Positions 35,339 through 58,087 of a stretch of DNA of 64,000 nt are shown one piece after another. Origin of the DNA: Candidatus Bipolaricaulota bacterium (GTDB lineage Bacteria > Bipolaricaulota > Bipolaricaulia > UBA7950 > UBA9294); contig JAUWGE010000004.1 in the NCBI GenBank assembly GCA_030606565.1, positions 3,256 through 67,255 of the forward strand, in the 5' to 3' direction. How positions within the stretch are numbered: the first letter of the stretch is position 1; each line of letters opens with the position of its first letter. Under the pieces are notes generated by a model. The model was not told the origin of the DNA, made no database searches, and saw only the letters and a program-made list of their open reading frames with translations. Position numbers and translations under genes: made by a program.

Positions 35339-35355
35339 GTGAGCTTTGAGATCTC

Positions 35356-35431
35356 GGGGGCGTGGTCTAGTCTGGTCTATGACGCTGGATTGTCACTCCA
35401 GAGATCGCCGGTTCAAATCCGGTCGTCCCCG
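35356..35431 (+). tRNA. tRNA-Asp (GTC)
   Basis: GGGGGCGTGGTCTAGTCTGGTCTATGACGCTGGATTGTCACTCCAGAGATCGCCGGTTCAAATCCGGTCGTCCCCG. Anticodon loop TTGTCAC. Confidence 0.95.
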
Positions 35432-35441
35432 CATGGAGCGT

Positions 35442-35517
35442 GCCGAGGTAGCTCAGTTGGTAGAGCACGGCCCTGAAAAGGCCGGTGTCCCCAGTTCGAC
35501 TCTGGGCCTCGGCACCA
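35442..35517 (+). tRNA. tRNA-Phe (GAA), CCA encoded
   Basis: GCCGAGGTAGCTCAGTTGGTAGAGCACGGCCCTGAAAAGGCCGGTGTCCCCAGTTCGACTCTGGGCCTCGGCACCA. Anticodon loop CTGAAAA. Confidence 0.95.
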
Positions 35518-42196: not shown

Positions 42197-43396
42197 TTAG
42201 GCAATCTTTGCAGAGTGCGGTAGGGCCTGCTTTAGCTCCTCGATTCGATCGGTTCTTTCCCACGTGGGATGAAGGTCGGTCCGGCCAAAGTGACCGTAGC
42301 AGGAGAACGGCTCGTAGATAGGTTTAAGTAGGTCCAGCCGATCGATGATCGCACCGGGACGGAAATCGAACACCTTAAGGACGGCTTGGCGCAGCCGGTC
42401 GTCCGGTGCAGTGCCTGTGCCATAGGTATTGATATTGACGGTGAGTGGGGCAGCACGGCCGATTGCGTAAGCAATCCGGATCTCCACCTTGCGTGCCAAA
42501 CCAGCGGCAACGACGTTCTTCGCCACATAGCGGGCCATGTATGAACCGGAGCGGTCGACCTTGGTCGGATCCTTCCCGGAGAACGCCCCTCCGCCGTGGG
42601 AACCATATCCTCCATAGGTGTCGACGATGATTTTACGACCGGTCATTCCGGTGTCCGAGGCCGGTCCCCCAATTACGAATCTCCCTGAGGAATTGACGAG
42701 GATCAAGGTCTCTTTGTCAATCCAGTTATCTAAAACCGGAAGGATCACGCACTTTGTAATATCCCCCCGCAGCTTTTCCTGGTCGACCTCTGGGTCGTGT
42801 TGAGCAGCGATAAGCGCTGTAGTGGCACGAAGGGGGCGAGAATCCTCGTATTCGATCGTTACTTGCGACTTTCCGTCCGGTCGCAGGTAAGGCAGTGTCC
42901 CGTCCTGGCGCACTACTGCCAGGCGTTTACTCAAGCGGTGGGCGAGGATGATGGGAAGCGGCATCAGTTCCTCGGTGGAAGAGCAGGCGTATCCGTACAT
43001 GATCCCCTGATCCCCGGCACCGATAACATCGTATGGATCCTTTGCGACCCCATTTCGCGCCTCTTTTGCCTTTCTTACGGCGGCTGCGATGTCGGTAGAT
43101 TGCTCCTTGATCGCCGAGAGGACGGCGCAGTCTCGATGATTGAATCCATAGTCCGCTTTGTCGTAGCCGACCTTCGCGACCACGTTGCGGGCGATGCGAT
43201 CGATGTCAGCGAAGGCCTCGGTGGAGATCTCTCCCCCTACAAGAACGAGGCCGGTGGTGAGGAAGGTCTCGCAGGCTACGTGTGCCTTCCGATCCTTTGC
43301 TAAGACAGCGTCCAAGACGGCATCAGAGATTCGATCGGCCATCTTGTCCGGGTGACCTTCGGTCACCGACTCCGATGTAAGAAACCCTCTTGCCAT
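42197..43396 (-). CDS. metK: S-adenosylmethionine synthase
   Basis: The start is set at MARGFLTSESVTEGHPDKMADRISD (ATG 43396, preceded by GGAGGGAG). GAGDQGIMYGYA and …GGGAFSGKDPTKVDRS are present. The 45-codon extension in the ORF track is rejected. Confidence 0.95.
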   Translation of the reverse strand: MARGFLTSESVTEGHPDKMADRISDAVLDAVLAKDRKAHVACETFLTTGLVLVGGEISTEAFADIDRIARNVVAKVGYDKADYGFNHRDCAVLSAIKEQSTDIAAAVRKAKEARNGVAKDPYDVIGAGDQGIMYGYACSSTEELMPLPIILAHRLSKRLAVVRQDGTLPYLRPDGKSQVTIEYEDSRPLRATTALIAAQHDPEVDQEKLRGDITKCVILPVLDNWIDKETLILVNSSGRFVIGGPASDTGMTGRKIIVDTYGGYGSHGGGAFSGKDPTKVDRSGSYMARYVAKNVVAAGLARKVEIRIAYAIGRAAPLTVNINTYGTGTAPDDRLRQAVLKVFDFRPGAIIDRLDLLKPIYEPFSCYGHFGRTDLHPTWERTDRIEELKQALPHSAKIA

Positions 43397-43577
43397 ACTC
43401 CCTCCTCTCTTTAGCATAAATCCTAGCCTCGTTCGGCATCCGTCGCAAGGCGTGAGAGGTTGCACGCGGTGCGGTGTTCGTGCCAGCGCTTTCGCATTGC
43501 AGCACAGAGCTAACGGGAACATTCCCGGCACGCTTGCGTTGACCCCTTTCTTGAGGAGGGTTGACAGGTAAACGATT

Positions 43578-44890
43578 ATGAACAGAGACTCTTTACTTGC
43601 TGTTGTTGCCGAATGGTTGGAAGAGATCGCGCTCCCGCCCCTCGTCCGACGTCAGGTTTTCCCGGTTGACCCAGACCATCTCAAGCACATCCTGGCCATT
43701 GTTGGGCCAAGACGTGCCGGCAAGACGTACTTCATGTATCAACTCATCCAATCTTTGCTGGATACAGGCAACTGGGCCAAACAGGACATTCTGTTTGTGG
43801 ATTTCGAGGACTACCGCCTGAGTGGATTCTTAGCAGAGGATCTGGATGAACTCCTTGCCGCATTCCAGCAGTTCACCGGCCAGTACCCCCGCTTTCTGTT
43901 TTTCGACGAGGTTCAGCATATACCCGAGTGGGGACAAGTCTTGCGAACGCTCCATAATCGTCGCCGGTTCAAGATCATCGTCTCCGGCAGCAATTCGCAG
44001 CTTCTGAGCCAGGAGGTCGTTACAGAGCTCCGTGGCCGGTACAAGGAATCAGGATGTTGCCGTTTTCCTTTGTGGAGTACTTACGCTACAGGGAGATATC
44101 GTACAGCTTGGCCACCTTTCACACCCCGGCTCGGGGGAAAATTGTTGCCGCGTTTGAAGAATACCTCAAGTACGGTGGGTTTCCTGAAGTCGTCATGCTC
44201 AGAGTTCCTTCTAAAATGCGTAAGCTCCTTCAATCTTACTTCCACACAATCTTCTACCGTGATATTCTCGAACGTTACCACATCAAGGCCAGATACGTCC
44301 TCGATGCGCTCATGCGTGAAATCCTTGAGGCCTTCTCAGAAACATTTTCCATAGGTCAGTTTGAGAAACAGCTCAAGAATAACGATCTTCCAGGTAGCAA
44401 GCGAACAATCGCCAACTACCTGCATTACCTTCAGGAAGCTTTCTTCATCATCGCAAACGACAAGTTTGCGTACTCACCCCGGCGCCGGATCATGAACCCC
44501 AAGAAGGTCTACCTCATGGACACCGGTCTTGCCGCACTCGGCCGTCCTTTTTCTGAGAATCGGGGGAAGGTGCTCGAAAACCTAGTTGCGATTGAGTTGT
44601 ATCGGCGTGGGCAAGAGACCTACTACTTCAAGGATCGGAACGAGTGCGACTTCATCGTGAAGGCAGGCCCCCGACCTACGGAAGCCATACAGGTCTGTTG
44701 GAAGCTTACGCCCCGCAACGAGAAGCGGGAACTTGCCGGACTGGCAGAGGCGCTCCGGACCCTTGAGCTTACAACCGGTACGATTCTTACATTCGCCAGG
44801 CCGGTGAAAGGGAGATGGCTGGTCAAGCAATACAGGTTCAACCGGTTTGGCGCTGGTTGCTCGATGAGAACGCAGAGTAGGATACCGTAA
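43578..44890 (+). pseudogene. AAA-ATPase (AAA_14 plus DUF4143 family), interrupted by a frameshift near 44045-44055
   Basis: ORF 43578-44354 carries Walker A GPRRAGKTY, Walker B FLFFDEVQ and …ELRGRYKE, then turns to junk. The family sequence continues in ORF 44054-44890 (MLPFSFVEYL…FPEV…YFHTIFYRDI…), which lies in another frame. Confidence 0.7.
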
Positions 44891-45408
44891 GGATATTCAA
44901 TGGGCCCAGGGGGCAGCACAATCCGGTGCAAATCAGGCTTCACATCGAGGGGGAGAATCCTGTACAATAGGCGAGTAAACGGGAGAGGATGAGGAAAAGC
45001 GTGCGCGAAGAAGGGACCTATGTATCAGACGGAAAGGGCGAGACTGTGAGGCTGGGGGCGCAACAAGCCATCACAAGAGAGGTTGATGCTCCGAATCTGA
45101 AGGAGAATCCTTACAGGTCGCTTTTTTTGAGGAGACAATCATCAAATCAAGGAAGAGGTCCGGGAGAACGTAAAGGGGGTTGAAATTTGATGTTTAACAA
45201 ATGGGAAGCAAAGCGGAGGAGAGAGAATCTGGCACAAGTCGTGCCGAAGTTGTGCAAGAGTGTATTGCACAAATGATTGAGCAAGCTAAGAACTTGAGTA
45301 CTAGCGCGATACCTCAAATCCGAGGTAAGGAAGGAATGGCAGAAAAGGGTAGCAGAAGCAGGTCACCGCAATCTGCGATGACCCCGTGCCGGAAGAGTGG
45401 GGCGTTGT

Positions 45409-46947
45409 ATGGATAAACTGAGGGCCTTCGTGAGCTCCGTCCAGTTGGAATTGGAGAATGAGCGGGTGAGCGTACAGCATCTGCTGCAGAGCGACCAGTT
45501 TCTCCAGACACATTGCGTACCAGTATTGTACGAGTACGAACCAGCATCTCCCGAGGTTGCCTCTGAGGAGTGCCTGACGACGATCGACGAGTGCCAGATC
45601 TACGTACTCATTGTCTGGAAGGAGTACGGTCATCGCGTCAACGGTCTGTCCATCATACACAAGGAGTATCGACGAGCTAAAGAGAAAGGGTTGCCGGTTC
45701 TGGCCTTCGTCAAAGGGCTGGGCAGTATAGACCGAGAGGAAGGGACCCAAGAGCTTCTCGCTGAGCTTAAGGCCGATGGCTACAAGCACAAGCACTTTGG
45801 CAACGTCATCGAGCTTCAGAGAGAGGTGCGGGCAGCGCTGGTCAAACTCCTCTCGAAGCAATTCAGTATCGAGCCGACAAGTGACGAGGATCAGATTGCC
45901 AAACAGACCATCGAAGCGACATCGCCGTTTGAGTCCCAGCCCCTTGACCACGTTCCTTGGGAGTTCCTTGACCAAAACGTAGCGCGCCAACTTATCGGGG
46001 CATCGGAGGGCAAGCCGACTGATGATCTAACCCCGGAAGAGGTTCTTGCCGGCGTGGCGCTTCGGGGGCTTGTGTGGCGAGATCCGGATTCGCGTGAGTA
46101 TCGCGCTACGGCTGCCGGTGTTGTTCTGCTGGGAAGGGATCCTTCGGCCGTCTTTCCACACTGCCGCATTCTCGCCGACGCCTACCGTGGAGCCGATCCA
46201 GATGGGGACCCGCGGGACCATGAAGACATCCGCGGGCCGATGCCCATGGTGGTTGATCGTGCGGTTGACTTCATCGATCGGAATACTCGCCATCCGATGC
46301 GCATTGTTGGACTGAGCCGAGTCCGATTGGACGAGTATCCTGTCGAAGCGCTGCGTGAAGCGCTGGTGAATGCACTCGCTCATCGTAACTACGAGGATGC
46401 GGGTCGGAAGATCATGCTAGAGGTCTTCGCCGATCGGGTCGTGGTTTCAAGTCCCGGGTTTCCTCCGTCCCCAATCACGCTCGCCAAGCTGCGGAGGGGC
46501 AACTACAAACCATGTTCGCGAAACCCGGTCATCGCTCAATGGCTTTCATACTTCCATCGGATCGAGGAACGTGGCAGTGGCTTCCAGCGCATGCGCGATT
46601 CCATGCTCGATCACGGTCTCGACCGGCCCACTCTGGGCACGAACACTGGGTATTTTCAAATCGTCTTCCCGGGACCGGGTGAGGATCTGGATCGGCTTCG
46701 GGTTCCACCTTCCGCCTTGGGACCGATTGTGACGCCCGCTGTGGAGGCTCAGTTAAACGAGCGACAGAAGAAGATGACTGCACGGCTGGTTCAAGGTGAG
46801 GAACTCACAAGTCGGCTCTGCGAGCAAGAATTCAGTGTCACACGCGACACCGCGAATCGCGATTTTAAGCTGCTCATGGAGCTGGACATTGCAGAGAGAA
46901 GAGGAGGTGGTCGTTCGACGCGCTATGTGCTCCGTGGTTCGCGCTAA
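45409..46947 (+). CDS. DUF4062-like / Schlafen-AlbA_2-like / HATPase_c_4 / C-terminal wHTH fusion protein
   Basis: N-terminus: MDKLRAFVSSVQLELENERV…IYVLIVWKEYG… (DUF4062-like). Middle and C-terminal parts: YPVEALREALVNALAHRNYEDAGRKIMLEVFADRVVVSSPGFPP…RNPVIAQWLSYFHRIEERGSGFQRM, the pattern of RecG-C-terminal-like putative regulators. The tail …EFSVTRDTANRDFKLLMELDIAERRGGGRSTRYVL looks like a wHTH. Confidence 0.65.
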   Translation: MDKLRAFVSSVQLELENERVSVQHLLQSDQFLQTHCVPVLYEYEPASPEVASEECLTTIDECQIYVLIVWKEYGHRVNGLSIIHKEYRRAKEKGLPVLAFVKGLGSIDREEGTQELLAELKADGYKHKHFGNVIELQREVRAALVKLLSKQFSIEPTSDEDQIAKQTIEATSPFESQPLDHVPWEFLDQNVARQLIGASEGKPTDDLTPEEVLAGVALRGLVWRDPDSREYRATAAGVVLLGRDPSAVFPHCRILADAYRGADPDGDPRDHEDIRGPMPMVVDRAVDFIDRNTRHPMRIVGLSRVRLDEYPVEALREALVNALAHRNYEDAGRKIMLEVFADRVVVSSPGFPPSPITLAKLRRGNYKPCSRNPVIAQWLSYFHRIEERGSGFQRMRDSMLDHGLDRPTLGTNTGYFQIVFPGPGEDLDRLRVPPSALGPIVTPAVEAQLNERQKKMTARLVQGEELTSRLCEQEFSVTRDTANRDFKLLMELDIAERRGGGRSTRYVLRGSR

Positions 46948-47625: not shown

Positions 47626-47955
47626 ATGGAAACTCCACAGGTAGTCCTTGACCTAGTCGATCGGTTCGAGTGCAATCGGGATGTCTATTGCTCCAACCAG
47701 TACAACGAAACCCAAACACGGCACGAATTCATCGATCCATTCTTCATGGCGCTCGGCTGGGACGTCAACAACGAGAAGGGCTACGCGGAGGCGTACAAAG
47801 AGGTCATCCACGAGGACGCGATCAAGGTCGGCGGCGCGACCAAGGCACCGGAACAACCGTGGCCATACTTGAAAGCTCAGCCTTCTGCCCATAAGGCCAG
47901 CAACAGCGCATCACGTCTTGTGGAAGGGGGAAAGGCAGATGTGGACACACCTTGA
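47626..47955 (+). pseudogene. N-terminal fragment of a large type IIG/IIL (Eco57I/PglX/YeeA-like) N6-adenine methyltransferase-restriction protein
   Basis: LVDRFECNRDVYCSNQYNETQTRHEFIDPFFMALGWDVNNEKGYAEAYKEVIHEDAIKVGGATKAP reproduces the conserved N-terminus of this family. After KAP (about nt 47850) the similarity ends, and the frame stops at 47955. Confidence 0.65.
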
Positions 47956-50887
47956 ACCTCATTCAGCCAAACTCGAGCAGGTTTTCGAGCCGTTGCACGC
48001 TAAGGCAGCGCAATACGATCACGCATGGTCGATTGCCGAGCTAAGACTATCAGAAGCCGACGTAACATGGCTTCGATCTTGGTTTGGCTGCCTAACTCCC
48101 GAGAGAACAGGAAATTGGATCAATTCCGTGATGCTTGCGAAGTATGAGGATGACGCATGCGTGACCTATCGCCAGATGTTCGGCTCTCTTCTTATATGCG
48201 CAGGGGCGGAAGTCTGCCGAGAGGAAAGCAGGGAAGATTCCGTCTGGCCGGCAATACGAAGCATCTTGCCGGAATCGCATGCGCTTCGACATAAGTTGTT
48301 TCTGGCGAATGGGCAACCATCTTCTTTGACTAAGGACGCTATTGCGGATGCTGTCCGCATACTAAATCTTCGCAACGCGATGGATATTGAGGGGACTCAG
48401 CAGTGGTTCGTGACAATCAAACTTCAGTTTGGCTTCACCTATTGTGGCGCGAACAATAGACTAGCCGAATGGCTGGTCAGCCTCGGACGGCCGCATGCGG
48501 TCCAATATCTTAACGGCGAATCCGAGTTCTCTGAACTCGCCTCTGAGTCTTTTAAATCGTTGTGGAGGGTATTAACGCAGTATAGACGAGGATTGATCGA
48601 GGAAACGGAAGTCCGCACGACTCTGCAACGCAATCCATGGGTCAAGGCCCATTGGATCGATGATTTACTGAAAGAGGCAAAAGCAAAGATCGCAACGCTC
48701 GGGACTGGAGAACGGCACGAGGAAGAAGCTGAGACATATGAGGAAGAGGTTTCAGAAGAAGAGCTTTGTCCCATCGCGGGCATTGCGCTCGAGTGGATTC
48801 CAAACACAGCGCCTCGATTCAGGTTCCAATTGGATCGTCAGGCCATCGAAGATGAAGTCAGCGGAACTGCGGCAAGCGAACTGGATTTCTATGTCGACGG
48901 CAGGAGACTATGCCGCTGGCTTCGCCAGAGAGACGGATCTTGGGCGGGCGTTGACCATATCTATGCTGAACTGGACAAGTATAGCGAGCAACCGAATCTT
49001 AACCCTCGGACACTTGTAGTTCAGTCTAGCTCTGGAGAATCTTTGCTGGAGTGGGACTTTGCCGATTCAGGTCTATCGGAGGATGTCCTGGTGTTCGACC
49101 TGGAAAGGGAGAGGATGGTCAAAGCGGCTTTGGAACGACTGGAGCCGAATCGGCGATACGCAATCGTTTGTGATCGCAAGTGTGAACTGCGAGGCAGCAC
49201 CACAGTTGAAACATTTGAGCGGAACGGGATTTCGAGAAAGGCAATACGCCTAGCCTTGCCTCTGAACGAGAATCTGTCTATTTACTACAAGGATTTTGTG
49301 CTATGGCAGCCAGTAAAAGCGGAAAGCGAGCAGCTTCCGCGATTCCCCCTTAGCCTAACGACGCCGGAAGGGAAGACCTTTTCGCTGCATGATAGATCGA
49401 AGCTGTTCTTGGAAGGCCTGCCAGAAGATGCCAAATCTGTCAAACTACTGATTTACAAGAAAACGTATGCTGTTGAGCAGCACGATAGCAGATGGCTCAC
49501 TTTGAAAGACGTTACAATAACCCCGGAGCTGGTGGCACGGCAACGTCGGGTTCTCGTTTATTTCTCATCAGGAGACAGGGAGTGCAAAGAAAAACCGCGC
49601 CTTGCTCTTAACCTGCTTGGCGCGGCCATGCTTCGTCATCAGCAAAACGATAATGCCGAAAAGGTGTCGTTTGAGGTTCTGAAACAAGGTGATCAGTTGA
49701 ATTGCTCTGAGGGGACGACCTACCTCAGAATTTGGACACCTGAGCACGACAAGGGCGCATCGGTGTTGGAAGGCGACTGCCAGGTGGGCCGATTGAAATA
49801 CCAGAAGATAAGACTACGGGATGTCCCTGGGCACGGGGGCGAGCTTCAGGTCATGAACCAAGGAGGGCGACACGGCTTGGGTATTGCGTGCTTGAACACA
49901 GGCTGTGTTCGTGACTACCTTCCTCCCATGCTTGGCTCATCGGATGCGCGATTGTTTCTCCTCTCGGACAGGGATCCTGCAGAAGTGGGGGATAACGGAT
50001 TTGCTCTATATGGGTGGTTTGTTGGTAAGAAAGGAAAGGCTAGACTCCGTAGGTTGCCGGATAGCAGTGTCCAGCTGAGTTCGAGTGATCGAGTATGGAA
50101 AATCCGGGACTCGTGCGACCCAATGGCCGTCGCGCTAACGTGGAAAGGAGCGTGGCTCGGGGCATGGTGGAGCCTTGAAAGTATCCGCGACTACGTCAAC
50201 GAGCGGACGGATTTACCTGAGCATGATTTCGCGATTATGAAGTGGCTGCGTGTGCCGGTCCTGCAGTCGACACTATCCTCCTCTCTAGCAAAGGCAATCT
50301 TGCAGGCCCCTTCCCGTTTCATCAAGACATGGCTGAACGATAGTGGACTTCCCGATGTGCTCAAGCCACATGCTCATATTCTGGGAATTGATTCGGTGGT
50401 GCGCCATTTTCTCTGGAATGATTTTCCTCCAGGGTATGCGAAAGATACAATCGCTGTAATCACGCAACGGGATGGTGGGTTGCATCAAATCGACAGCCAC
50501 ATCGGATATTTACAGCAACTATCTGATATTTCTCCTGTTTTGTTGTGGAAGGGGATGGAGAAGGTCTTGATACGCGACGGCAAGACGATTGTCGATCTCC
50601 TTCATATGTTTACTCGTGCACAAGTCGGGTTATCTTCAAGCGATGATCGGCAGCAAATGCTTTTCAGGCTTCAGGGCTTAGAAAAGAGAGCATCGAGCGC
50701 AACTGGCATCAGCCAGGAGAGATTGAAAGAGATCACGTGCAACCGCTTCAGGTTGATGAAGGACAAGCGATGGCGTCCGTTGGAAGAAGATCGCGTTGAT
50801 CTATTGAGGCTTGGGCAAACTATTTCTGGTAGGCGACATCTATCTGCACGAATGGGTCTGTACTGGCTTGATCTGGCCGAGGTATAG
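47939..50887 (+). CDS. very large protein of unknown function (DruH-like by size and position)
   Basis: Roughly 980-aa uninterrupted ORF. ATG 47939 follows GGAAGGGGGAAAGG. Its stop lies 12 nt before the helicase ATG. I see no motif I can assign. Confidence 0.6.
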   Translation: MWTHLEPHSAKLEQVFEPLHAKAAQYDHAWSIAELRLSEADVTWLRSWFGCLTPERTGNWINSVMLAKYEDDACVTYRQMFGSLLICAGAEVCREESREDSVWPAIRSILPESHALRHKLFLANGQPSSLTKDAIADAVRILNLRNAMDIEGTQQWFVTIKLQFGFTYCGANNRLAEWLVSLGRPHAVQYLNGESEFSELASESFKSLWRVLTQYRRGLIEETEVRTTLQRNPWVKAHWIDDLLKEAKAKIATLGTGERHEEEAETYEEEVSEEELCPIAGIALEWIPNTAPRFRFQLDRQAIEDEVSGTAASELDFYVDGRRLCRWLRQRDGSWAGVDHIYAELDKYSEQPNLNPRTLVVQSSSGESLLEWDFADSGLSEDVLVFDLERERMVKAALERLEPNRRYAIVCDRKCELRGSTTVETFERNGISRKAIRLALPLNENLSIYYKDFVLWQPVKAESEQLPRFPLSLTTPEGKTFSLHDRSKLFLEGLPEDAKSVKLLIYKKTYAVEQHDSRWLTLKDVTITPELVARQRRVLVYFSSGDRECKEKPRLALNLLGAAMLRHQQNDNAEKVSFEVLKQGDQLNCSEGTTYLRIWTPEHDKGASVLEGDCQVGRLKYQKIRLRDVPGHGGELQVMNQGGRHGLGIACLNTGCVRDYLPPMLGSSDARLFLLSDRDPAEVGDNGFALYGWFVGKKGKARLRRLPDSSVQLSSSDRVWKIRDSCDPMAVALTWKGAWLGAWWSLESIRDYVNERTDLPEHDFAIMKWLRVPVLQSTLSSSLAKAILQAPSRFIKTWLNDSGLPDVLKPHAHILGIDSVVRHFLWNDFPPGYAKDTIAVITQRDGGLHQIDSHIGYLQQLSDISPVLLWKGMEKVLIRDGKTIVDLLHMFTRAQVGLSSSDDRQQMLFRLQGLEKRASSATGISQERLKEITCNRFRLMKDKRWRPLEEDRVDLLRLGQTISGRRHLSARMGLYWLDLAEV

Positions 50888-50899
50888 GAGGATCTGAGC

Positions 50900-52396
50900 A
50901 TGGGGCAAGTTGACGCACTGAAAATGGTCGAACACGTTCGGACGAGGCTTGTGGATCTCGCCGTGTCGGAGAACTATGTCCGGGACAACAGGCTTTCCGA
51001 CGCTGCGCAAACGGTCTGGGAAGGGCCGGGCGCTGACGGGGGGCTGGTCAGCGAATTGTGGGTGGAGGGTGCATTTCCCGGTGAACATAGCTCTGATTCG
51101 CTGAAGTCGCTGAGTGCCGAAGGTTTGTTCCCTGATGACCTTTGCCGTCATGTGAATGCTCGTGACATTTTCCCAGAAGATCGACTGTTGTACAACCACC
51201 AGTCCGAAGCGCTGCGCAAGACCGCGACAGCGAAAGCAAGAGAAAAACCGGCTTTCGTTATCACCGCTGGGACGGGTCTTGGAAAGACGGAAGCTTTCCT
51301 CTTGCCCATGCTGGCAGACCTCTGGACCGCACCTGATAGGCGGAAGAACGGAGGGATGAGATGTCTGATTCTGTACCCTATGAACGCGCTTATTGCGGAT
51401 CAAGTTGACCGAATCTACGGATGGCTTAAGGGCCAGCAACGACTTACCGTATTCCATTTCACAAGTGAGACCCCTGAAGATGCCCGACGTGCAAATAAGC
51501 AGGGTGAACCTAACTGGGAGTCATGCAGGGTGCGCACGCGACAGGAGGCACGCGGTTTTGAGACACACAATGGGGACGCAATACGTCAAGAGCCATTTGG
51601 CAGCGTTCCGGATATCGTGATTACGAACTACTCGATGCTGGAGTATATGCTGTGTCGACCACAGGACTCCCGCTTCTTTGGTCCCGACCTCCGATGCATC
51701 ATCCTCGATGAAGCCCATCTCTACACTGGTACCTTGGCAGCGGAGATTATGATGCTCCTGCGACGTGTGCGGGAGCGCTGCGGGGTTTCACCGTATGAAA
51801 TCCTCCATATGGCCACATCGGCGACCTTGGGCGGAGATGATGAAGAGTTGCAGGCTTTTGCGTCGTCGCTCTTTTCCACAGATAAGGCGACGACGACTGT
51901 TATTCGCGGTCGCTATGCCGACCACGATCTTGGGGACGCTGAGTCTCCACCAACACAGCCAACACCGGCGGCAGATACCGCGAAATTCGTCGACCTTGAT
52001 TTTGACACGCTGACGGCAGAAGACAAACTGATCGAAGATAACGAGGAGACAGTGGGTATGTTAGGCGAGGTTACCACCCTTCTTGTCTCCAAAGCCACAT
52101 TGGACCGTGCGCGACATGAGTACCCCGGTACGCCGGCACGTTTTCTACACGCAAGCATGCGAGAAGCGCCACTCATAAGACAAGTAGCTGCCCTACTGGC
52201 AAAGGACAAGGAAAAGGAAAAGGGCAGTGTGCTAAGTCTGAATGATCTAGCAGGTAGGCTGTTTAATGGCAAGAATGACGTAGATGAACGTAACGCGACC
52301 ATATGCTTTGCTACGTATTGCCGCTGCTGCACGGATGCGTGCTTCGGACTTGCCCCTGGTTCCCCATCGACTACATTTCCTGGTTCGCGCTCCTGA
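50900..52396 (+). CDS. DEAD/DEAH-box helicase, N-terminal (RecA1) part of a giant DUF1998 helicase (DruE-like)
   Basis: AGGAGG lies 8 nt upstream. Motif I AGTGLGKTEAF, Ia ILYPMNALIADQ, II IILDEAHLY, III SATLGG. The last 32 or so codons look out of frame relative to the family. Confidence 0.75.
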   Translation: MGQVDALKMVEHVRTRLVDLAVSENYVRDNRLSDAAQTVWEGPGADGGLVSELWVEGAFPGEHSSDSLKSLSAEGLFPDDLCRHVNARDIFPEDRLLYNHQSEALRKTATAKAREKPAFVITAGTGLGKTEAFLLPMLADLWTAPDRRKNGGMRCLILYPMNALIADQVDRIYGWLKGQQRLTVFHFTSETPEDARRANKQGEPNWESCRVRTRQEARGFETHNGDAIRQEPFGSVPDIVITNYSMLEYMLCRPQDSRFFGPDLRCIILDEAHLYTGTLAAEIMMLLRRVRERCGVSPYEILHMATSATLGGDDEELQAFASSLFSTDKATTTVIRGRYADHDLGDAESPPTQPTPAADTAKFVDLDFDTLTAEDKLIEDNEETVGMLGEVTTLLVSKATLDRARHEYPGTPARFLHASMREAPLIRQVAALLAKDKEKEKGSVLSLNDLAGRLFNGKNDVDERNATICFATYCRCCTDACFGLAPGSPSTTFPGSRS

Positions 52397-55300
52397 GGGG
52401 CTGTCCGTTTGTCTGAACCCGCACTGCTCCGGCCGTGATGAACGTCGGATTCCATCGATCGGTTGTCTACAGCCAATAGGGGACCGCTGCCGGTACTGCG
52501 GGCATATCCTGTTGCCGGTCCACCGTTGCGACAACTGCGGTGAATGGGCTCTTGCAGCACATGAGAAACAGGACACATTTACACTCGAGCCTGGATACTA
52601 CGCTGAATCCGCTGAACAACGCACCTATTATCTTCTGACCCGACCCAAAGACCTCGATCTGGAAGAAGTTGTGGTTGATTCTGAAGCAGGCGAGATCCAT
52701 GGTCATGGCGCTGCAGGCGTATCCCTCTGGAAAGCGCCGCGTGAGTCGGCCGAATCGCAGGTCCAGCACTGCCCGACATGCCGCTCCTCATGGGCGTCAG
52801 CTGACGGTGAGGAACAGCAGCCAGAGTGGAAACGCACATGTCGAAGTTTGGTCGGTGGACGCCCCTTTGCATTATCCGTAACCGCTGAGACAGTGCTTCA
52901 TGATCTTCCGCCATACCGCGGGATCTCTCGCCACTGGAAGCCTTCCGGAGGCCGGCGTCTCCTTTCCTTCAGCGATTCGCGCGCATCGGCCGCTCGGCTT
53001 GGTCCGCTTCTGACCCAGCAGCATGAAATGCGGGTTGTCCGTGCCTCTATGGCTCGTTGCGCCCAAGATCTTACACCGGCGGGAACAGCTGAATACCTTG
53101 CCAGTGAAGTAGATAGGCTGAAGAAACAAATGGCAAGTCCGAGACTTCTGCCTGAATTAAAGCAACATCTGGGGGCGGAACTGCAAGAGAAGCAAGTCAA
53201 GTTACAGCGCGCCAAGGTTGGAACTTCCTTCACCGACTACGCAAGACTCGTAACCCAAAGAGGTGAGTTAATCCAGATTCTGGACCGTGATACAGCCGAA
53301 CGTCACAATGCCGACAATTACGGACAATCCGAATGGGAAAGGAACGGCAAAGAAATTAAGGATCATATCGAGGGATTGATTGCCAAGGAGCTCGAACGCC
53401 CACTGAAGAAGCGAGCATCCGTAGAATCGGTTGGACTCATTGAGGTCGTCTATCCGGGGATCGACAGCCTTGGCATTCCTCCTCTTTTGGAGGAAAAGCT
53501 GTCATCAAACGTCCGACCGAAGATAGCAGAAGTATGGCCTGAATTCGTCGCTCTGCTCCTGGACTCTGCCCGGAGAGATAGCTGTGTTGCCTGGTCTCAT
53601 AAGACGCCCGGGCGAACGTGGCTTGGTGAATCGCCGTTGCCGGGGCGATGGTTGACTCGTACGCGCGGTGGATGGGTCGCCGCTGCATTTGTAGGCGCAA
53701 CGCGAAGGCAGCTTCGGCGGACATTCGCATTCAATATGCTCCATACAGCCGGCTGCGTTGATAGTCAATTGGAGTGCCTGTCCGAGGAAATCCTGTGCGC
53801 GGTCTTCGATCAGCTCTTCCAGTTGGCGGGGAAGATTGGCCACGGTTTTGCATGGCTACGGAATGATGACCACCATCAGACCGAGCCTGAGGAAGCAGAC
53901 AAAGCTATACAGATACTGCTGGATCAGCTTAGTGTACGGTCGCCCGCTCAGCTCTACCGCTGTGAGGCTACAGGAACAGTCTGGGCCCACTCCGCGCTCG
54001 GTTGGGTGCCCATAGAAGGCTGTCTTGGCACGCTGCGCGCCATTACCCCAGAGGAACTTGACAAGGATGCACGGTGGGGTCGAGCTCGTCGGGAGCTCAA
54101 AGAGTCGCCAATCTTCTCGGAAGGGTTGTGGGCGGAAGAGCACTCGGCGCAGCTCTCACCTCAAGAGAACCGGCGCTTGCAGAACCTCTTCAAGAAGGGC
54201 ATTCGGAATGTCCTATCTTCCACAACAACGATGGAACTGGGTATTGATATCGGTGGCCTAAATGGGGTGCTGTTGAGCAACGTGCCTCCTGGACCGGCGA
54301 ATCATCGCCAGCGCGCTGGGCGAGCAGGACGCCGATCCGATGGTTCTGCAGTGGTCGTCACATATGCTCGTAACTCGGAATACGACCGGCAGGTGTTTCG
54401 CCGGTTCGGGGATTTCCTGAAGCGGGGCCTGAGGAAACCAACTGTCTTCCTCGACCGTGAACGCATTATCCGACGTCATCTCCACGCTGTTCTCTTGTCT
54501 GAGTTCCTGCGGTCGAAGCAGCCGGAAAAGACCGGAGCAATGCACGCCTATGGGAAAATGGGTGCGTTCTGCGGCGTTAAAACCATACCTTCACGCTGGA
54601 CACGCGTATCGGAACCCAAACCCCTGTGGTCGCCAGAAGGCATCAATGTCGCTGACCAATTCATTGAGTTCTTGGGTCAATTGCAAACAGCGGACGGGGG
54701 ATTCCAGAGTCGCTTGTTCCACCTTTCGGAACACACTGTCTTGAGCACTATAGGGGAACTTGACAGCTGGCGTGAGTTCGTCGGTTCAGCGGTGGATGTG
54801 TTCCGCAAGGCCATCGATGAATGGACGCGAGATGTTGAGCAGCTAAGGGAAGTCTGGAATGAGATCCCATCACAGCCAGCGACTGACAAAAACCGCGAGA
54901 TGGCGAAGGCGAACTCGATTCGTCACATGATTAGGGCGCTTTGTGAGATTACCGTCATAGAGCGGCTAGCAGACCGACGGTTTCTACCGCGTTACGGATT
55001 CCCCATCAACCTCCAAAGCTTGACTGTGCGAAAGGCAATCGAGGGAAGCCGCCGCGACTACTCCGCGCCAGACGAAAGATATCGGCTGGAACGGAGTTCG
55101 CTCCTAGCTCTCAGAGAATACGTGCCCGAATCACGCGTGCTTGTTGGGGGTCGGGTAGCTACCTCCCGTGGTTTGCGGAAGCACTGGACAGACAACAATC
55201 TGGATAGAGCGCTTGGCTTGCAATACTTCTCCCTTGAATGCCCCGAGGAACACGTTTACATTCGTCAGTCACCGGATGAGACTTGCCCGAGATGCGGTTC

Positions 55301-56132
55301 TGCTCCGGCCAAGGGCAAGACACGACAGCTTGTATTCCCTCGCTTTGGCTACACAACGGCTGGCTGGGATAAAATGCCGTTGGGAACAAACCTTGAGCGA
55401 ATCGGGAAGCAGTCTGTTTGTCCAATAGCTTTCGCTGAACATGGTGGAGGCAAAACAGTGGAGGATTTTGGTGGCATTCGCAAAGCACGTATCACTTACC
55501 GAGAAGAGGCTGAACTTCTCGTGAGAAACGCTGGGCGCCGTGGTTGTGGCTTCGCCATCTGTACGCGATGTGGCTTTGCCATGAGTGAAGTTGACTACGG
55601 TCAAGGTCGGATGAACCTACTGAAGGATTTTCACAAGCACGCATCTGTGTTTTCCAGTAACCCTGCAAGTTTCTGCTGGGGAAAAGGCGAGCAGACAGCG
55701 CCCGTCTTGAGAAACAGGGTACTTGCTGCTAGGGAACTGACTGACATGGCGCTCCTTGAATGGCCTGGAGCAACGTCAAACGAATATGATGGCCTGTATT
55801 CACTTGGACGCGCGCTGGTGCTGGCTGGCGCACGTCTTCTTGAACTGGACGAGCGCGAACTTGGAATGGAACTCATTCCACTGCGCGACAAGAATGTCGG
55901 TATCGTCATCTACGACACTGCCCCAGGGGGAGCAGGCCATTGTCAAAGACTCATTGATCTTGGCCGGGAGTGGATCGAGGCAACCCAGAATATTCTCTAC
56001 GTTGATGACAAGCACCACTCGCGCTGCAAGAAGGCTTGCCTTGACTGCATTCTTGACTTCTCCGGCCAGTATTCCGCGGATCGACTGGATCGACTGGCAG
56101 CCTTAACTCTCTTGGATGATGCAATTTCTTGA
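52284..56132 (+). CDS. helicase C-terminal (RecA2) plus zinc ribbons plus DUF1998 part of the same giant helicase (DruE-like)
   Basis: LPLVPHRLHFLVRAPEGLSVCLNPHC…CRYCG…CDNCGEW. Motifs V/VI VLSSTTTMELGIDIGGL…HRQRAGRAGRR. DUF1998-type C-terminus CPRCGS…AICTRCGF…IYDTAPGGAGHCQRL…CKKACLDCIL. Confidence 0.8.
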   Translation: MNVTRPYALLRIAAAARMRASDLPLVPHRLHFLVRAPEGLSVCLNPHCSGRDERRIPSIGCLQPIGDRCRYCGHILLPVHRCDNCGEWALAAHEKQDTFTLEPGYYAESAEQRTYYLLTRPKDLDLEEVVVDSEAGEIHGHGAAGVSLWKAPRESAESQVQHCPTCRSSWASADGEEQQPEWKRTCRSLVGGRPFALSVTAETVLHDLPPYRGISRHWKPSGGRRLLSFSDSRASAARLGPLLTQQHEMRVVRASMARCAQDLTPAGTAEYLASEVDRLKKQMASPRLLPELKQHLGAELQEKQVKLQRAKVGTSFTDYARLVTQRGELIQILDRDTAERHNADNYGQSEWERNGKEIKDHIEGLIAKELERPLKKRASVESVGLIEVVYPGIDSLGIPPLLEEKLSSNVRPKIAEVWPEFVALLLDSARRDSCVAWSHKTPGRTWLGESPLPGRWLTRTRGGWVAAAFVGATRRQLRRTFAFNMLHTAGCVDSQLECLSEEILCAVFDQLFQLAGKIGHGFAWLRNDDHHQTEPEEADKAIQILLDQLSVRSPAQLYRCEATGTVWAHSALGWVPIEGCLGTLRAITPEELDKDARWGRARRELKESPIFSEGLWAEEHSAQLSPQENRRLQNLFKKGIRNVLSSTTTMELGIDIGGLNGVLLSNVPPGPANHRQRAGRAGRRSDGSAVVVTYARNSEYDRQVFRRFGDFLKRGLRKPTVFLDRERIIRRHLHAVLLSEFLRSKQPEKTGAMHAYGKMGAFCGVKTIPSRWTRVSEPKPLWSPEGINVADQFIEFLGQLQTADGGFQSRLFHLSEHTVLSTIGELDSWREFVGSAVDVFRKAIDEWTRDVEQLREVWNEIPSQPATDKNREMAKANSIRHMIRALCEITVIERLADRRFLPRYGFPINLQSLTVRKAIEGSRRDYSAPDERYRLERSSLLALREYVPESRVLVGGRVATSRGLRKHWTDNNLDRALGLQYFSLECPEEHVYIRQSPDETCPRCGSAPAKGKTRQLVFPRFGYTTAGWDKMPLGTNLERIGKQSVCPIAFAEHGGGKTVEDFGGIRKARITYREEAELLVRNAGRRGCGFAICTRCGFAMSEVDYGQGRMNLLKDFHKHASVFSSNPASFCWGKGEQTAPVLRNRVLAARELTDMALLEWPGATSNEYDGLYSLGRALVLAGARLLELDERELGMELIPLRDKNVGIVIYDTAPGGAGHCQRLIDLGREWIEATQNILYVDDKHHSRCKKACLDCILDFSGQYSADRLDRLAALTLLDDAIS

Positions 56133-56540: not shown

Positions 56541-56861
56541 ATGGGAGAAACATCCAGTCACAAACGGGCTAAAGCCAAGGCTGCGGGCAAATCAGGCAAG
56601 ACCGAGGTGCCACTCAAAGGCAACCGGCGGCTTGATGCCGTTTCGAAGGTCAAAGCCACTGAGGTTGAGCGCAGTGGCACCATGGCCGGTTTGGAGAAAG
56701 CGGCTCAGCGCCTCAAGGCTAGCAGAAAGCGGCAGAAGGTTCTCCAAGTTCCCCAAAAGGACATAGACAAGGCCTCACAGGCAATGCGAAACGTAGGGGT
56801 TGGTGGAACTGTCAAGAACATGTCAGGAACGAAACGACGCTCTGTCCCGAAGAAGAAGTAG
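56541..56861 (+). CDS. hypothetical Lys/Arg-rich small protein
   Basis: 106-aa ORF with AGGAGG 7-8 nt upstream. Strongly basic at both ends (HKRAKAKAAGKSGK…KRRSVPKKK). No family recognised. Confidence 0.6.
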   Translation: MGETSSHKRAKAKAAGKSGKTEVPLKGNRRLDAVSKVKATEVERSGTMAGLEKAAQRLKASRKRQKVLQVPQKDIDKASQAMRNVGVGGTVKNMSGTKRRSVPKKK

Positions 56862-56991
56862 AATTGCCCAGCCATGGGTTCCACTGTACCGGCTGAAGGC
56901 GTGCCTTCAGACAGCCAGTGAACCCAAGCGATGGAGCGGGCGCAAAGCGATCCATCGAGCTGCCGTTTGCAATTTTCTAAAGGTAAAGAGC

Positions 56992-57576
56992 ATGACAAAG
57001 TTCGGATTCAAAGAGATCACGCCGAGCAATTGGTTGGAACCCGACGATGTCCTGAAAGGGTTCGTCAGGATATCGCCTGATGGGCGACGCCACACGATCA
57101 CTGGTGAAGAGTACCTCCGACATATACTGAGACCCAGGCTGCTTGAATCGGTGCCTACAGGTGTGCAGGCGCTGTTTGAGGTTGCGCGTGGTGGTATGGT
57201 TTATGGCTATTTCTTCTACCCTCTCTACACCCTTGCCGCTGAGCAGCTATTCCGAGTTGTCGAGGCAGCTGTAGCTCATAAGTGCAAGGCGTTGGGAACG
57301 CCAAGATCAAGAAGAACCTTTGAGAAGAGAATAGACTGGCTTGTGGAAGGAGGAGTTATTCCAAGGTCGGAGTCTGCTCGCTGGCACGCTGCTCGTAAGC
57401 TGAGAAATGCGGCATCGCATCCGGAACGCCAGATGATCCTCCCACCAGGTAACGCAATAGGCATGTTGGAAAGAATTGCGGATGACCTTAACTCACTGTT
57501 CAGCGGCGGATTAGCTCATAGCCATTCCGGGGTAATTCCGGGGACGCATACCATAATTCCTCAAGGAGCAGCCTGA
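56992..57576 (+). CDS. DUF4145-like protein
   Basis: The start is set at MTKFGFKEI (ATG 56992). …ALFEVARGGMVYGYFFYPLYTLAAEQLFRVVE…IDWLVEGGVIPRSESARWHAARKLRNAASHPE resembles the DUF4145 helical module (…LRN..AH). Its last 14 codons lie inside repeat copy B. Confidence 0.55.
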   Translation: MTKFGFKEITPSNWLEPDDVLKGFVRISPDGRRHTITGEEYLRHILRPRLLESVPTGVQALFEVARGGMVYGYFFYPLYTLAAEQLFRVVEAAVAHKCKALGTPRSRRTFEKRIDWLVEGGVIPRSESARWHAARKLRNAASHPERQMILPPGNAIGMLERIADDLNSLFSGGLAHSHSGVIPGTHTIIPQGAA

Positions 57577-57608
57577 GATAAGATTTGTGTCCCTCGAATT
57601 CCTACATG
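57534..57608. repeat. palindromic repeat element, copy B (full)
   Basis: AATTCCGGGGACGCATACCATAATTCCTCAAGGAGCAGCCTGAGATAAGATTTGTGTCCCTCGAATTCCTACATG. It sits between convergent genes and overlaps both stop codons. Confidence 0.8.
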
Positions 57609-58087
57609 TTTGACTCGCGCTCACGAGAGGACAGACGAGTTATCAACCGCTCAATCTCGCCTTCGATCTCTTTCATTGCTGCGTCTGTAGACTTGCGATC
57701 CAGGTCCTCAACGTGCCAGTACTCCACCTGATCAGCCCATCGGATGAACCTCTCGTGCACGAGTTGTCTATGTTCATACTCATCTAGGGCCACTATTAGA
57801 TTGGCCGTCTCAAAATCATGGCTGCACGCTTGCTGCGGTGGCCTTGCTGCCTCGCCAACATCGATCCCTCTTCCTTCCAGAACCGTAACTGCGTGTGGAG
57901 ATAGGTTCTCCGACTTTGGCGGACCGCCATCCACAGTAATCCCTCTTGATGTCGCTTGCCAGCGCAGTCCAACGCGTTCGGCTTGTCGGTTGAAGAGAAT
58001 CTCTGCGATACGACTGCGGTAGTAGTTGGCCGTACAGAGAAACAGAACCAGCTGTCTATTGGTTTTCGACGTTCCTATTGTTGACAT
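57602..58087 (-). CDS. low-molecular-weight phosphotyrosine phosphatase / ArsC-family protein
   Basis: P-loop LFLCTANYYRSRIAE (CX5R-S) near the N-terminus and an acidic DLD loop near the C-terminus. 161 aa. Confidence 0.8.
   Translation of the reverse strand: MSTIGTSKTNRQLVLFLCTANYYRSRIAEILFNRQAERVGLRWQATSRGITVDGGPPKSENLSPHAVTVLEGRGIDVGEAARPPQQACSHDFETANLIVALDEYEHRQLVHERFIRWADQVEYWHVEDLDRKSTDAAMKEIEGEIERLITRLSSRERESNM

What the first reader, a model, noticed from the sequence alone, without database searches (positions are those of the whole stretch)
47939..56132. Giant unknown protein plus a roughly 1740-aa DEAD-box/zinc-ribbon/DUF1998 helicase: a Druantia type III-like pair
A protein of about 980 aa with no motif I can assign is followed 12 nt later, after a strong AGGAGG, by a helicase reading frame covering 50900-56132. 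The helicase carries:
- motifs I-III (GTGLGKTEAF, DEAH, SAT);
- a double CxxC ribbon insert;
- motifs V-VI (QRAGRAGRR);
- a DUF1998-type Cys4 C-terminus (IYDTAPGGAGHC…CLDC).

Established knowledge: Druantia is defined by a very large DUF1998 helicase (DruE), and type III consists of only DruH plus DruE (Doron et al. 2018). DISARM splits the helicase (DrmA) and DUF1998 (DrmB) into separate genes and adds other genes that are absent here.

Assigning the first gene as DruH rests only on size and synteny. If it is not DruH, this is a new partner for a DruE-class helicase.
Basis: partly seen in the sequence, partly recalled or inferred. Interest (0 to 1): 0.7.

Follow-up and report, generated by a model that had tools for sequence, protein, structure and literature searches.

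The report
Compact Druantia-III-like defence pair, frameshifted
This is a two-gene anti-phage cassette of the Druantia type III kind: a very divergent DruH-like partner plus a compact DruE helicase that naturally lacks the nuclease tail. The helicase gene in this window is broken by a one-base insertion, so the finding is a new member of a recently described kind rather than a new system.

Summary
However, the "1740-aa helicase" is not one reading frame: a 1-nt insertion near 52303 splits it into 498-aa and 1282-aa ORFs. Repaired, it gives 1743 aa.

**Helicase.** It scores best against PADLOC DruE3 and matches the solved E. coli DruE (9tu7). It ends at the equivalent of residue ~1721, so it has no PLD nuclease domains.

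**Partner.** The 982-aa protein hits no DruH model in PADLOC (11 DruH3 models matched the positive control) or NCBIfam YjiT_fam. Evidence that it is nevertheless DruH-like:
- A confident AF2 model shows DruH's published plan: N-terminal helical domain, Ig-like β array, C-terminal helical domain.
- Its N-terminal domain aligns with DruH's at 86 % hhalign probability; ten controls scored ≤1.5 %.
- All 21 complete compact DruEs of this clade sampled in other genomes have a member of this family directly upstream.

**Phylogeny.** The helicase clade has 100 % bootstrap support and is sister to canonical III-A (87 %). Partner and helicase co-evolve (r = 0.83).

**Verdict.** This is a Druantia "III-B / type III-like" pair, as outlined by Bell et al. 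2025. Its partner family is missed by the HMM libraries tested, and the copy here may be inactive.

The parts
47939..50887 (+). DruH-like partner gene (982 aa). N-terminal helical domain is about aa 1-250, acidic disordered linker 252-274, Ig-like beta array 279-745, and C-terminal helical domain 746-982.
   Evidence: ORF. AF2 model has pLDDT 86.3 and pTM 0.85. Foldseek hits are tandem Ig arrays. The family has 94 clusters and 820 representative clusters. A member sits directly upstream of the compact DruE in all sampled loci of the clade. The N-terminal domain aligns with DruH at hhalign 85.7 %.
48020..48451 (+). Core of the N-terminal domain (aa 28-171), remotely homologous to DruH aa 29-146. 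It contains invariant E91, R94 and W103, which align with E. coli DruH E75, R78 and W89.
   Evidence: hhalign P = 5.4e-6, with all controls at 1.5 % probability or less. The same motif, AAEFIRR, is present in solved DruH 9tud.
50886..50891 (+). Shine-Dalgarno AGGAGG, 8 nt upstream of the helicase ATG and overlapping the partner's stop codon. This suggests the two genes are co-transcribed and their translation is coupled.
   Evidence: Sequence read.
50900..52302 (+). DruE 5' part up to the frameshift: N-terminal region, RecA1 (Walker A at 51269-51292, DEAH at 51707-51718) and a helical insert.
   Evidence: PADLOC DruE3 E 2.7e-62. Pfam DEAD. Intact orthologues carry precomputed Pfam YjiV_N hits.
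52303..52303 (+). Single-base insertion that shifts the DruE reading frame. It is either a pseudogenising mutation or an assembly error.
   Evidence: blastn against L005 and tblastn frame switch. Repair restores a 1743-aa ORF. Relatives are continuous at this site.
52304..56132 (+). DruE 3' part: zinc-binding CxxC module (about 52410-52781), RecA2 (motif VI QRAGRAGRR at 54309-54335), an OB region, and the MZB/DUF1998 Cys4 domain (55812-56051). The gene ends about 25 aa after the last Cys, with no PLD or other nuclease domain.
   Evidence: PADLOC DruE3 E 6.3e-139, covering the profile only up to position 1675 of 2055. Pfam Helicase_C and MZB. The C-terminus aligns to residue 1717 of the 2108-aa DruE 9tu7.

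Best explanation
The locus is a two-gene Druantia type III-like anti-phage cassette of the compact, PLD-less 'III-B-type' form.

**Components**
- Gene 2 is a DruE helicase of the YprA/MrfA family: an SF2 helicase with a zinc-binding insert and a C-terminal OB/MZB module.
- Gene 1 is a highly diverged homologue of DruH, with a helical N-terminal domain, an array of about five Ig-like domains, and a helical C-terminal domain.

**Mechanism, inferred from the characterised III-A systems**
- DruE loads on exposed ssDNA or forked phage replication intermediates and unwinds 3'->5'.
- The partner binds or trims ssDNA through its conserved N-terminal domain and docks on DruE through its C-terminal helical domain.
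- Together they block phage DNA replication.
- Because this DruE has no nuclease domain, any DNA degradation must come from the partner or from host nucleases.

**State of this copy**
As assembled, DruE is interrupted by a 1-nt insertion at about 52303. This copy is therefore either recently inactivated or carries a sequencing error.

**Shown versus inferred**
- Shown: gene identities, architecture, conserved pairing, clade position, the frameshift.
- Inferred: biochemical activities, complex formation, defence phenotype.
For: **DruE assignment**
- PADLOC DruE3 is the best hit for both halves.
- 794 bits to solved DruE 9tu7, against 103 bits to YprA 6znp.

**Compact form**
- The C-terminus aligns to residue 1717 of 2108 in 9tu7.
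- The clade has only 0-60 aa after the MZB domain, against 357-403 aa in III-A.

**Clade**
- NJ tree of 72 DruEs: window clade 100 % bootstrap, III-A clade 100 %, the two as sisters 87 %. The outgroup is confirmed as DruE1.

**Pairing**
- All 21 complete compact DruEs of the clade sampled in other genomes have an A1-family gene immediately upstream, and so do the partial loci where upstream sequence is present. These come from more than 10 phyla.
- Nearly all canonical long DruEs with upstream sequence have YjiT-type DruH upstream instead.
- There are no cross-hits between the two partner families.
- Mirror-tree correlation is r = 0.83, reached by 0 of 2000 permutations.

**Partner**
- The AF2 model (pLDDT 86) is tripartite, like the published DruH and like my control model of E. 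coli DruH.
- Both models return the same class of PDB hits.
- The N-terminal domains align at 85.7 % hhalign probability, P = 5e-6. Eight mismatched-domain and two reversed controls scored 1.5 % or less.

**Context and literature**
- The cassette sits in a defence island with PDC-S01, a DUF4062 protein, a type IIG R-M remnant and a DUF4145 protein.
- The III-B subtype is described as DruH plus a compact DruE lacking PLDs (10.64898/2026.05.13.724758; 10.1101/2025.09.15.676423).
- E. coli DruE(1-1723) without the PLDs still defends (same Himpich preprint).
- M. smegmatis DruH plus a 1667-aa DruE without a nuclease domain is active (PMC13316683).
Against: - No DruH profile detects the partner or eight distant family members: the PADLOC DruH3 models (11 matched the positive control), NCBIfam YjiT_fam, a full-length hhalign (0.15 % with small alignments, 37 % with large ones), and the PDB sequence of DruH 9tud.
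- The beta-array and C-terminal domains give no sequence signal.
- No direct structure-to-structure comparison with DruH was possible, because 9tud is not in the Foldseek library.
- I could not compare with the published III-B reference (GIH50614.1) or with the mycobacterial system. The long forms of the family are acidobacterial, not actinobacterial.
- The DruE gene is frameshifted here, so function in this organism is doubtful.
- No experiment exists for this clade.
Confidence: 0.75

Rival explanations
1. The partner is not a DruH homologue. It is an unrelated (analogous) Ig-array protein recruited independently by a DruE-like helicase, which would make this a distinct Druantia-like system with a new partner.
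For: - No DruH HMM or profile hit at full length.
- The beta and C-terminal domains give no signal.
- Another DruE clade (L035, L049, L081) has yet another unrecognised large partner, so partner replacement does occur in this family.
Against: - The N-terminal domains align specifically and at equivalent positions, with each family's invariant E/R/W residues matched (86 % against 1.5 % or less in controls).
- The order of the three domain types, the protein size and the gene position are the same.
- The two helicase clades are sisters, so divergence of one ancestral pair is the more parsimonious account.
Confidence: 0.15
2. The locus is a dead relic. The frameshift is real, DruE is a pseudogene, and the cassette no longer functions in this genome.
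For: - There is a 1-nt insertion outside any homopolymer.
- A second defence gene 7 kb upstream (PDC-S01) is also frameshifted.
- Defence cassettes often decay. E. coli K-12 yjiT/yjiV is a truncated Druantia III, and relatives L006, L021, L029 and L051 are also split.
Against: - There is only one lesion. Both parts keep every catalytic motif and about 87 % identity to an intact orthologue, with no further stops.
- This fits a very recent event or an assembly error equally well.
- No independent assembly covers the site.
- This rival concerns the state of this copy, not what the system is.
Confidence: 0.45
3. The helicase is a housekeeping MrfA/YprA- or Lhr-type DNA-repair helicase with an unrelated neighbouring gene.
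For: It shares DEAD, Helicase_C and MZB domains with MrfA.
Against: - It scores 103 bits to YprA 6znp, against 794 bits to DruE 9tu7.
- NCBIfam repair-helicase models all score far below their cut-offs.
- It is 1743 aa long, with the DruE-specific zinc-binding and helical inserts.
- It is strictly paired with the partner family and its genomic context varies between genomes.
- It sits among defence genes.
Confidence: 0.02

Closest known systems
Druantia type III-B / 'type III-like' branch (Bell et al. 2025, bioRxiv 10.1101/2025.09.15.676423; Himpich et al. 2026, 10.64898/2026.05.13.724758)
   Same: - Two genes only.
- A large partner gene lies upstream of a compact DruE that most often has no C-terminal nuclease domain.
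- The helicase branch is phylogenetically distinct from III-A.
- My clade reproduces the published description: mostly no extension after the MZB domain, two members with about 160 aa, and a neighbouring clade with PLD-sized tails.
   Different: - I could not obtain the III-B reference sequence (GIH50614.1), so identity of the clades is inferred, not tested.
- The literature calls the III-B partner 'DruH', but the partner here is invisible to all DruH HMMs tested.
Druantia type III-A (E. coli ATCC 8739/EDL933, P. aeruginosa; PDB 9tu7 DruE, 9tud DruH)
   Same: - Gene order and tight spacing.
- DruE core: RecA1, helical insert, zinc-binding module, RecA2, OB and MZB.
- The partner has an N-terminal helical domain, an Ig-like array and a C-terminal helical domain.
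- The N-terminal domain is remotely homologous.
   Different: - DruE is only about 25 % identical and lacks both PLD domains (1743 aa against about 2100 aa).
- The partner is about 110 aa shorter (roughly one Ig-like domain fewer) and is not a member of YjiT_fam or PADLOC DruH3.
- Found in uncultivated environmental phyla rather than Proteobacteria.
Mycolicibacterium smegmatis DruH-DruE (MSMEG_1253/1254; PMC13316683)
   Same: A two-gene system whose DruE (1667 aa) has no nuclease domain. It is experimentally active, which shows that a PLD-less pair can defend.
   Different: - Its DruH is 1132 aa.
- The sequence relationship to the window's proteins could not be tested.
- No actinobacterial member of the window's partner family was found.
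DISARM DrmA/DrmB and MrfA/YprA
   Same: The SF2 helicase plus DUF1998/MZB module belongs to the same superfamily.
   Different: - In DISARM, helicase and DUF1998 are split into two genes and accompanied by DrmC/DrmD/DrmMI, which are absent here.
- MrfA is about 750 aa and lacks the DruE inserts.
- Both score far lower than DruE.

Membership tests
DruE (Druantia signature helicase, type III) | The best profile match is DruE3 rather than DruE1/2/4, DrmA or DpdJ | tested here: met
   For the two halves, PDLC00037 DruE3 scores 209 + 463 bits. DruE1 scores 158 + 321 bits, and DrmA and DpdJ at most 77 bits. The match to the solved DruE 9tu7 has E 2.8e-237.
DruE (Druantia signature helicase, type III) | SF2 motifs, zinc-binding insert and C-terminal MZB/DUF1998 Cys4 on one polypeptide | tested here: inconclusive
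   All motifs and domains are present. However, in this window they lie on two ORFs because of a 1-nt insertion. Orthologues encode a single 1737-1746-aa ORF.
Druantia type III-A | C-terminal tandem PLD domains on DruE (about 360-400 aa after the MZB domain) | tested here: not met
   The protein ends at the equivalent of residue about 1721 of the 2108-aa 9tu7. The PADLOC profile is covered only up to position 1675 of 2055. The clade has 0-60 aa after the MZB domain.
Druantia type III-A | The partner belongs to the YjiT/STY4851 DruH family (NF038336; PADLOC DruH3) | tested here: not met
   There are no hits even at E <= 10. The positive control, E. coli YjiT, scores E = 0 on 11 DruH3 models and on NF038336.
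Druantia type III-B / III-like | A two-gene cassette: a large partner plus a compact DruE without PLD domains | tested here: met
Druantia type III-B / III-like | The helicase falls in the published III-B branch (reference GIH50614.1) | not testable with these tools
   The reference sequence was not retrievable. My tree shows only a distinct clade sister to III-A.
DruH | Architecture: N-terminal helical domain, Ig-like domain array, C-terminal helical domain that packs against the N-terminal domain | tested here: met
   The AF2 model (pLDDT 86, pTM 0.85) is helical at 1-250, beta at 279-745 and helical at 746-982. The control model of E. coli DruH is helical at 1-266, beta at 272-818 and helical at 834-1096. 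The number of Ig-like domains appears to be about five rather than six; this was estimated from the secondary-structure string only.
DruH | Sequence homology to DruH | tested here: inconclusive
   Full-length hhalign gives 0.15-37 %. The N-terminal domain alone gives 85.7 %, P = 5.4e-6, with ten controls at 1.5 % or less. The other domains give no signal.
DruH | Encoded immediately upstream of, and co-evolving with, DruE | tested here: met
   There is a 12-nt gap with a Shine-Dalgarno sequence. The arrangement is conserved in every sampled locus of the clade that retains upstream sequence. Mirror-tree correlation r = 0.83.
DruH | ssDNA binding or 3'-5' exonuclease activity, and binding to the DruE stalk | not testable with these tools
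   These are biochemical properties. Only conservation of an aligned E/R/W motif in the N-terminal domain is seen.
DISARM | Separate DrmA and DrmB genes plus DrmC and a methylase or DrmD | tested here: not met
   Helicase and MZB belong to one gene. The only DrmA/DrmB hits are weak matches (about 1e-7 to 1e-8) within the DruE halves, and none of the neighbouring ORFs scanned hits a DISARM component.

The most novel reading that the evidence does not exclude
The 982-aa family plus its compact helicase clade could be a distinct Druantia subtype that the published III-A/III-B scheme and the PADLOC v2 and NCBIfam models tested here do not cover.
- It comprises at least 820 protein clusters at 50 % identity.
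- It is spread over Omnitrophota, Acidobacteriota, Planctomycetota, Chloroflexota, Myxococcota, Verrucomicrobiota and other phyla.
- In this reading, the diverged partner rather than the helicase supplies the only nuclease activity.
Probability: 0.3. Interest if true: 0.55.

Novelty: new member of a known kind. Interest (0 to 1): 0.4.

Why it matters
1. The 2026 preprints disagree on whether DruE's PLD nuclease is needed. Loeff et al. find that D1740A abolishes defence, whereas Himpich et al. find that DruE(1-1723) still defends. A large natural clade whose DruE stops exactly at that boundary, while staying strictly paired with a DruH-like partner, argues that helicase plus partner is the conserved functional core. 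It also offers natural test cases.
2. The partner family is invisible to PADLOC DruH3 and NCBIfam. Annotation with these models would therefore flag an orphan DruE here. An HMM built from this family would recover the many systems in uncultivated phyla implied by the 820 partner-protein clusters.
3. The only sequence feature shared between the two DruH families is the N-terminal core. Loeff et al. propose a nuclease site in this N-terminal domain, so the shared core points to the residues worth mutating.

For this particular genome, the cassette may be inactive.

Tried and rejected
- **Standard family searches on the partner.** PADLOC, Pfam and NCBIfam gave nothing.
- **Pairwise and first profile comparisons with DruH.** BLASTP against E. 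coli DruH showed only noise. The first hhalign, with small alignments, was negative and became informative only domain by domain with about 150-200 sequences per family.
- **Foldseek against the PDB.** It found only generic Ig arrays. A control fold of canonical DruH showed that the solved DruH (9tud) is not in that library, so its absence from the hits means nothing.
- **Linking to the mycobacterial or III-B systems.** Bell et al.'s supplement holds no sequence. Cluster look-ups gave no organism names. The long forms of the family proved to be acidobacterial.
- **Pfam on C-terminal extensions of relatives (looking for Vsr or PLD).** No hits, not even for the E. coli PLD control, so the test is uninformative.
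- **Mapping PaDruH R22/K28/E64.** Not possible without the P. aeruginosa sequence.
- **Resolving mutation versus assembly error at the frameshift.** An identical partner gene occurs in an independent Logan contig, but that contig ends before the site. Exact products are not on record. No exact-flank match exists in metagenomes. Only relatives at 77-87 % identity were found, all intact.
- **Programmed frameshifting.** Rejected: there is no slippery heptamer at the site, and all orthologues are in frame.
- **The 109-aa upstream ORF as a third component.** Rejected: it is conserved only in the closest relative's locus.
- **Plasmid carriage.** No tblastn hit.
Full report
**1. Observation**

The region holds a 982-aa ORF at 47939-50887; an upstream TTG at 47918 would give 989 aa. 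Homologues of 960-990 aa align from the ATG, so 47939 is the likely start.

Its stop codon TAG lies at 50885-50887 and overlaps an AGGAGG at 50886-50891. The next ATG is at 50900.

The helicase is not one reading frame. ORFs 50900-52396 (498 aa) and 52284-56132 (1282 aa) overlap in different frames. Comparison with an 89 %-identical relative (L005) shows one extra base at about 52303, CCATATGC versus CCAT-TGC. Deleting it restores a 1743-aa protein. The close relatives L001, L003, L005, L009 and L091-L094 are uninterrupted at this site. The site has no slippery sequence and is not a homopolymer.

I could not decide between a real mutation and an assembly error. An independent Logan contig carries the identical partner gene but ends before the site. 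The exact split products are not on record elsewhere. No exact-flank match exists in metagenomes.

**2. The helicase**

- Both halves score best against PADLOC DruE3 (PDLC00037; E 2.7e-62 and 6.3e-139). This is ahead of DruE1/2/4 and far ahead of DrmA, DrmB and DpdJ.
- A profile of the helicase and four relatives hits the solved E. coli DruE (9tu7, 2108 aa) at 794 bits, but MrfA/YprA (6znp) at only 103 bits.
- The protein ends at the equivalent of residue about 1721 of 9tu7, and the PADLOC profile is covered only up to position 1675 of 2055. It therefore lacks the two PLD domains that define canonical III-A DruE (Loeff et al., 10.64898/2026.05.13.724313; Himpich et al., 10.64898/2026.05.13.724758).
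- It is a natural counterpart of the engineered DruE(1-1723), which Himpich et al. report still defends.

**3. The partner**

Sequence searches were negative:
- The 982-aa protein has no Pfam, PADLOC or NCBIfam hit, even at E <= 10.
- The positive control, an intact E. coli YjiT from L008, hits 11 PADLOC DruH3 models and NF038336 (YjiT_fam) at E = 0.
- Eight distant members of the window's family also miss every PADLOC model.
- The family profile finds nothing in PDB sequences, although solved DruH 9tud is present there.

The family is nevertheless large and coherent. It has 94 clusters at 90 % identity by word-indexed search and 820 representatives at 50 % identity with E <= 1e-3 by full HMM search.

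Structure prediction supports a DruH-like architecture:
- An AlphaFold2 model built with 37 sequences is confident (pLDDT 86.3, pTM 0.85).
- It shows a helical domain at 1-250, a disordered acidic linker at 252-274, an all-beta region at 279-745, and a helical domain at 746-982.
- It is also the plan of my control model of E. coli DruH: helical 1-266, beta 272-818, helical 834-1096.
- Foldseek returns tandem Ig/MG arrays for both models, with several entries in common. The control also shows that 9tud is not in that Foldseek library.

Profile-profile comparison was negative with small alignments (0.15 %). I then used 209 sequences of the window's family and 146 of canonical DruH:
- The N-terminal domains align at 85.7 % probability (P = 5.4e-6), window residues 28-171 against E. 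coli DruH 29-146.
- Eight mismatched domain pairs and two reversed controls gave 1.5 % or less.
- Invariant residues coincide: window E91/R94/W103 with E. coli E75/R78/W89. The motif is aaExxRR...W, and 9tud has AAEFIRR.
- The beta and C-terminal regions give no sequence signal.

**4. Comparative genomics**

A scan of one genome per species with a DruE profile returned 80 loci. I ran hmmsearch on their ORFs with profiles of the two partner families.
- Every DruE that is 36-74 % identical to the window's has a member of the window's partner family directly upstream on the same strand, wherever upstream sequence is present. These come from Omnitrophota, Planctomycetota, Acidobacteriota, Myxococcota, Chloroflexota, Verrucomicrobiota, Armatimonadota, Abditibacteriota, Latescibacterota and a Beggiatoa relative.
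- Nearly all of the roughly 2000-2140-aa DruEs whose locus includes upstream sequence have canonical DruH upstream, including L054 once tested by hhalign.
- The two partner families never cross-hit.

An NJ tree of 72 DruEs (1492 columns) gives these results:
- The window clade has 100 % bootstrap support.
- The canonical III-A clade has 100 %.
- The two are sisters at 87 %, relative to a confirmed type I outgroup (L088 scores 1951 bits on DruE1) and a further clade whose large partner matches neither family.

C-terminal tails after the MZB domain are 0-60 aa in the window clade, with two members at about 155-163 aa. In III-A they are 357-403 aa, with two independent losses (L078, L079).

Partner and helicase distances correlate at r = 0.83, reached by 0 of 2000 permutations, and the partner evolves faster.

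**5. Placement in the literature**

- Bell et al. (10.1101/2025.09.15.676423) describe a phylogenetically distinct 'Druantia type III-like' branch, labelled III-B. [quoted passage not shown] - The clade found here fits that description. I could not obtain the III-B reference sequence, so identity with that branch is inferred.
- A PLD-less pair from M. smegmatis (DruH 1132 aa, DruE 1667 aa) is experimentally active (PMC13316683).

**6. Mechanism (inferred)**

By analogy with III-A, DruE would load on exposed ssDNA or forked phage replication intermediates and unwind 3'->5'.

The partner would bind or trim ssDNA. Loeff et al. report a 3'-5' exonuclease with its site in the N-terminal domain. Hu et al. 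(10.64898/2026.05.12.722862) report ATP-competitive ssDNA binding at the Ig5/C-terminal interface. The partner would dock on the DruE stalk through its C-terminal domain.

With no nuclease on DruE, any degradation would depend on the partner or on host enzymes. The N-terminal core is the only part conserved between the two partner families, which is consistent with it being a functional site.

**7. Context and state of this copy**

The cassette lies between metK (42197-43531, minus strand) and a low-molecular-weight phosphatase gene (57602-58087, minus strand). Its neighbours are:
- PDC-S01, which is itself frameshifted at about 44047-44052;
- a DUF4062/HATPase_c_4 protein;
- a 109-aa type IIG R-M N-terminal remnant;
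- a DUF4145 protein.

Two frameshifted defence genes within 10 kb suggest either decay of the island or local assembly errors.

**8. Verdict**

It is a Druantia type III-like pair, but of the compact PLD-less kind. Its partner is linked to DruH only by architecture, synteny and remote N-terminal homology, and the helicase gene is broken.

Novelty: a new member of a recently described kind. The useful addition is that the partner family escapes the DruH models tested.

Interest: 0.4.

Noticed in passing
window 43578-44890 (+): A PDC-S01-type candidate defence gene (AAA_14 + DUF4143) is split into two overlapping ORFs, 43578-44354 and 44054-44890. These match the N- and C-terminal halves of PADLOC PDLC04787. 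The cause is a 1-nt deletion near 44047-44052 (...RGRYKE | IRMLPFSFVEY...). This is the second frameshifted defence gene in the island.
   Followed up: partly
window 45397-46947 (+): A 516-aa protein with DUF4062 and HATPase_c_4 domains has weak PADLOC hits to SIR2-PNTD/pAgo-associated proteins (E about 1e-10 to 1e-11). Relatives lie near DruE cassettes in L014 and L076, so it is possibly another defence gene.
   Followed up: partly
window 47626-47955 (+): A 109-aa ORF overlaps the start of the partner gene. It matches only the first ~80 positions of type IIG restriction-methyltransferases (HSDR_N). It is conserved (54 % identity) at the same position only in the closest relative's locus, L006. 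It looks like a truncated R-M gene remnant that travelled with the cassette.
   Followed up: yes
window 56800-57576 (+): A DUF4145 protein lies directly downstream of DruE. It has no counterpart in the other cassettes.
   Followed up: partly
window 34922-35517 (+): A cluster of six tRNA genes (Lys-CTT, Lys-TTT, Glu, Val, Asp, Phe) lies about 8 kb upstream of the defence island. A tRNA-Ala is at 4944-5020 on the minus strand.
   Followed up: no
L035 1566-11568; L049 989-10490; L081 2223-11732: A further DruE clade has PLD-sized C-terminal tails (333-363 aa). Each is preceded by a single 1170-1390-aa protein that matches neither DruH family and no PADLOC model. This is another two-gene Druantia-like variant with an unrecognised partner.
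   Followed up: partly
L078 5878-10890; L079 5884-11097: These are canonical (YjiT-type) DruH genes paired with DruEs that have lost the PLD tail (0-2 aa after the MZB domain), nested inside the III-A clade. The PLD domains have therefore been lost independently more than once.
   Followed up: partly
L024 2-5137; L025 1116-5870; proteins P0195, P0209, P0210, P0222: Some members of the window's partner family are much longer (1570-2000 aa), with N-terminal extensions. The extension in L024 carries a Sigma70_r4-like HTH. Acidobacterial forms of about 1135-1280 aa have an extra N-terminal region of 200-340 aa.
   Followed up: partly
L007 10415-14856 (E. coli K-12 yjiT-yjiV): K-12 yjiT (505 aa) and the yjiV pseudogene are the truncated remains of a Druantia III-A pair. 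The pair is intact in other E. coli strains: in L008, YjiT is 1096 aa and DruE 2114 aa. This is a well-known example of the same kind of decay seen in the window.
   Followed up: yes
L006, L021, L029, L051, L014, L016: Several relatives' cassettes are also split into multiple ORFs. Some come from long-read MAGs, where indel errors are likely. Frameshifts in this gene pair should therefore not be read as pseudogenes without read support.
   Followed up: no
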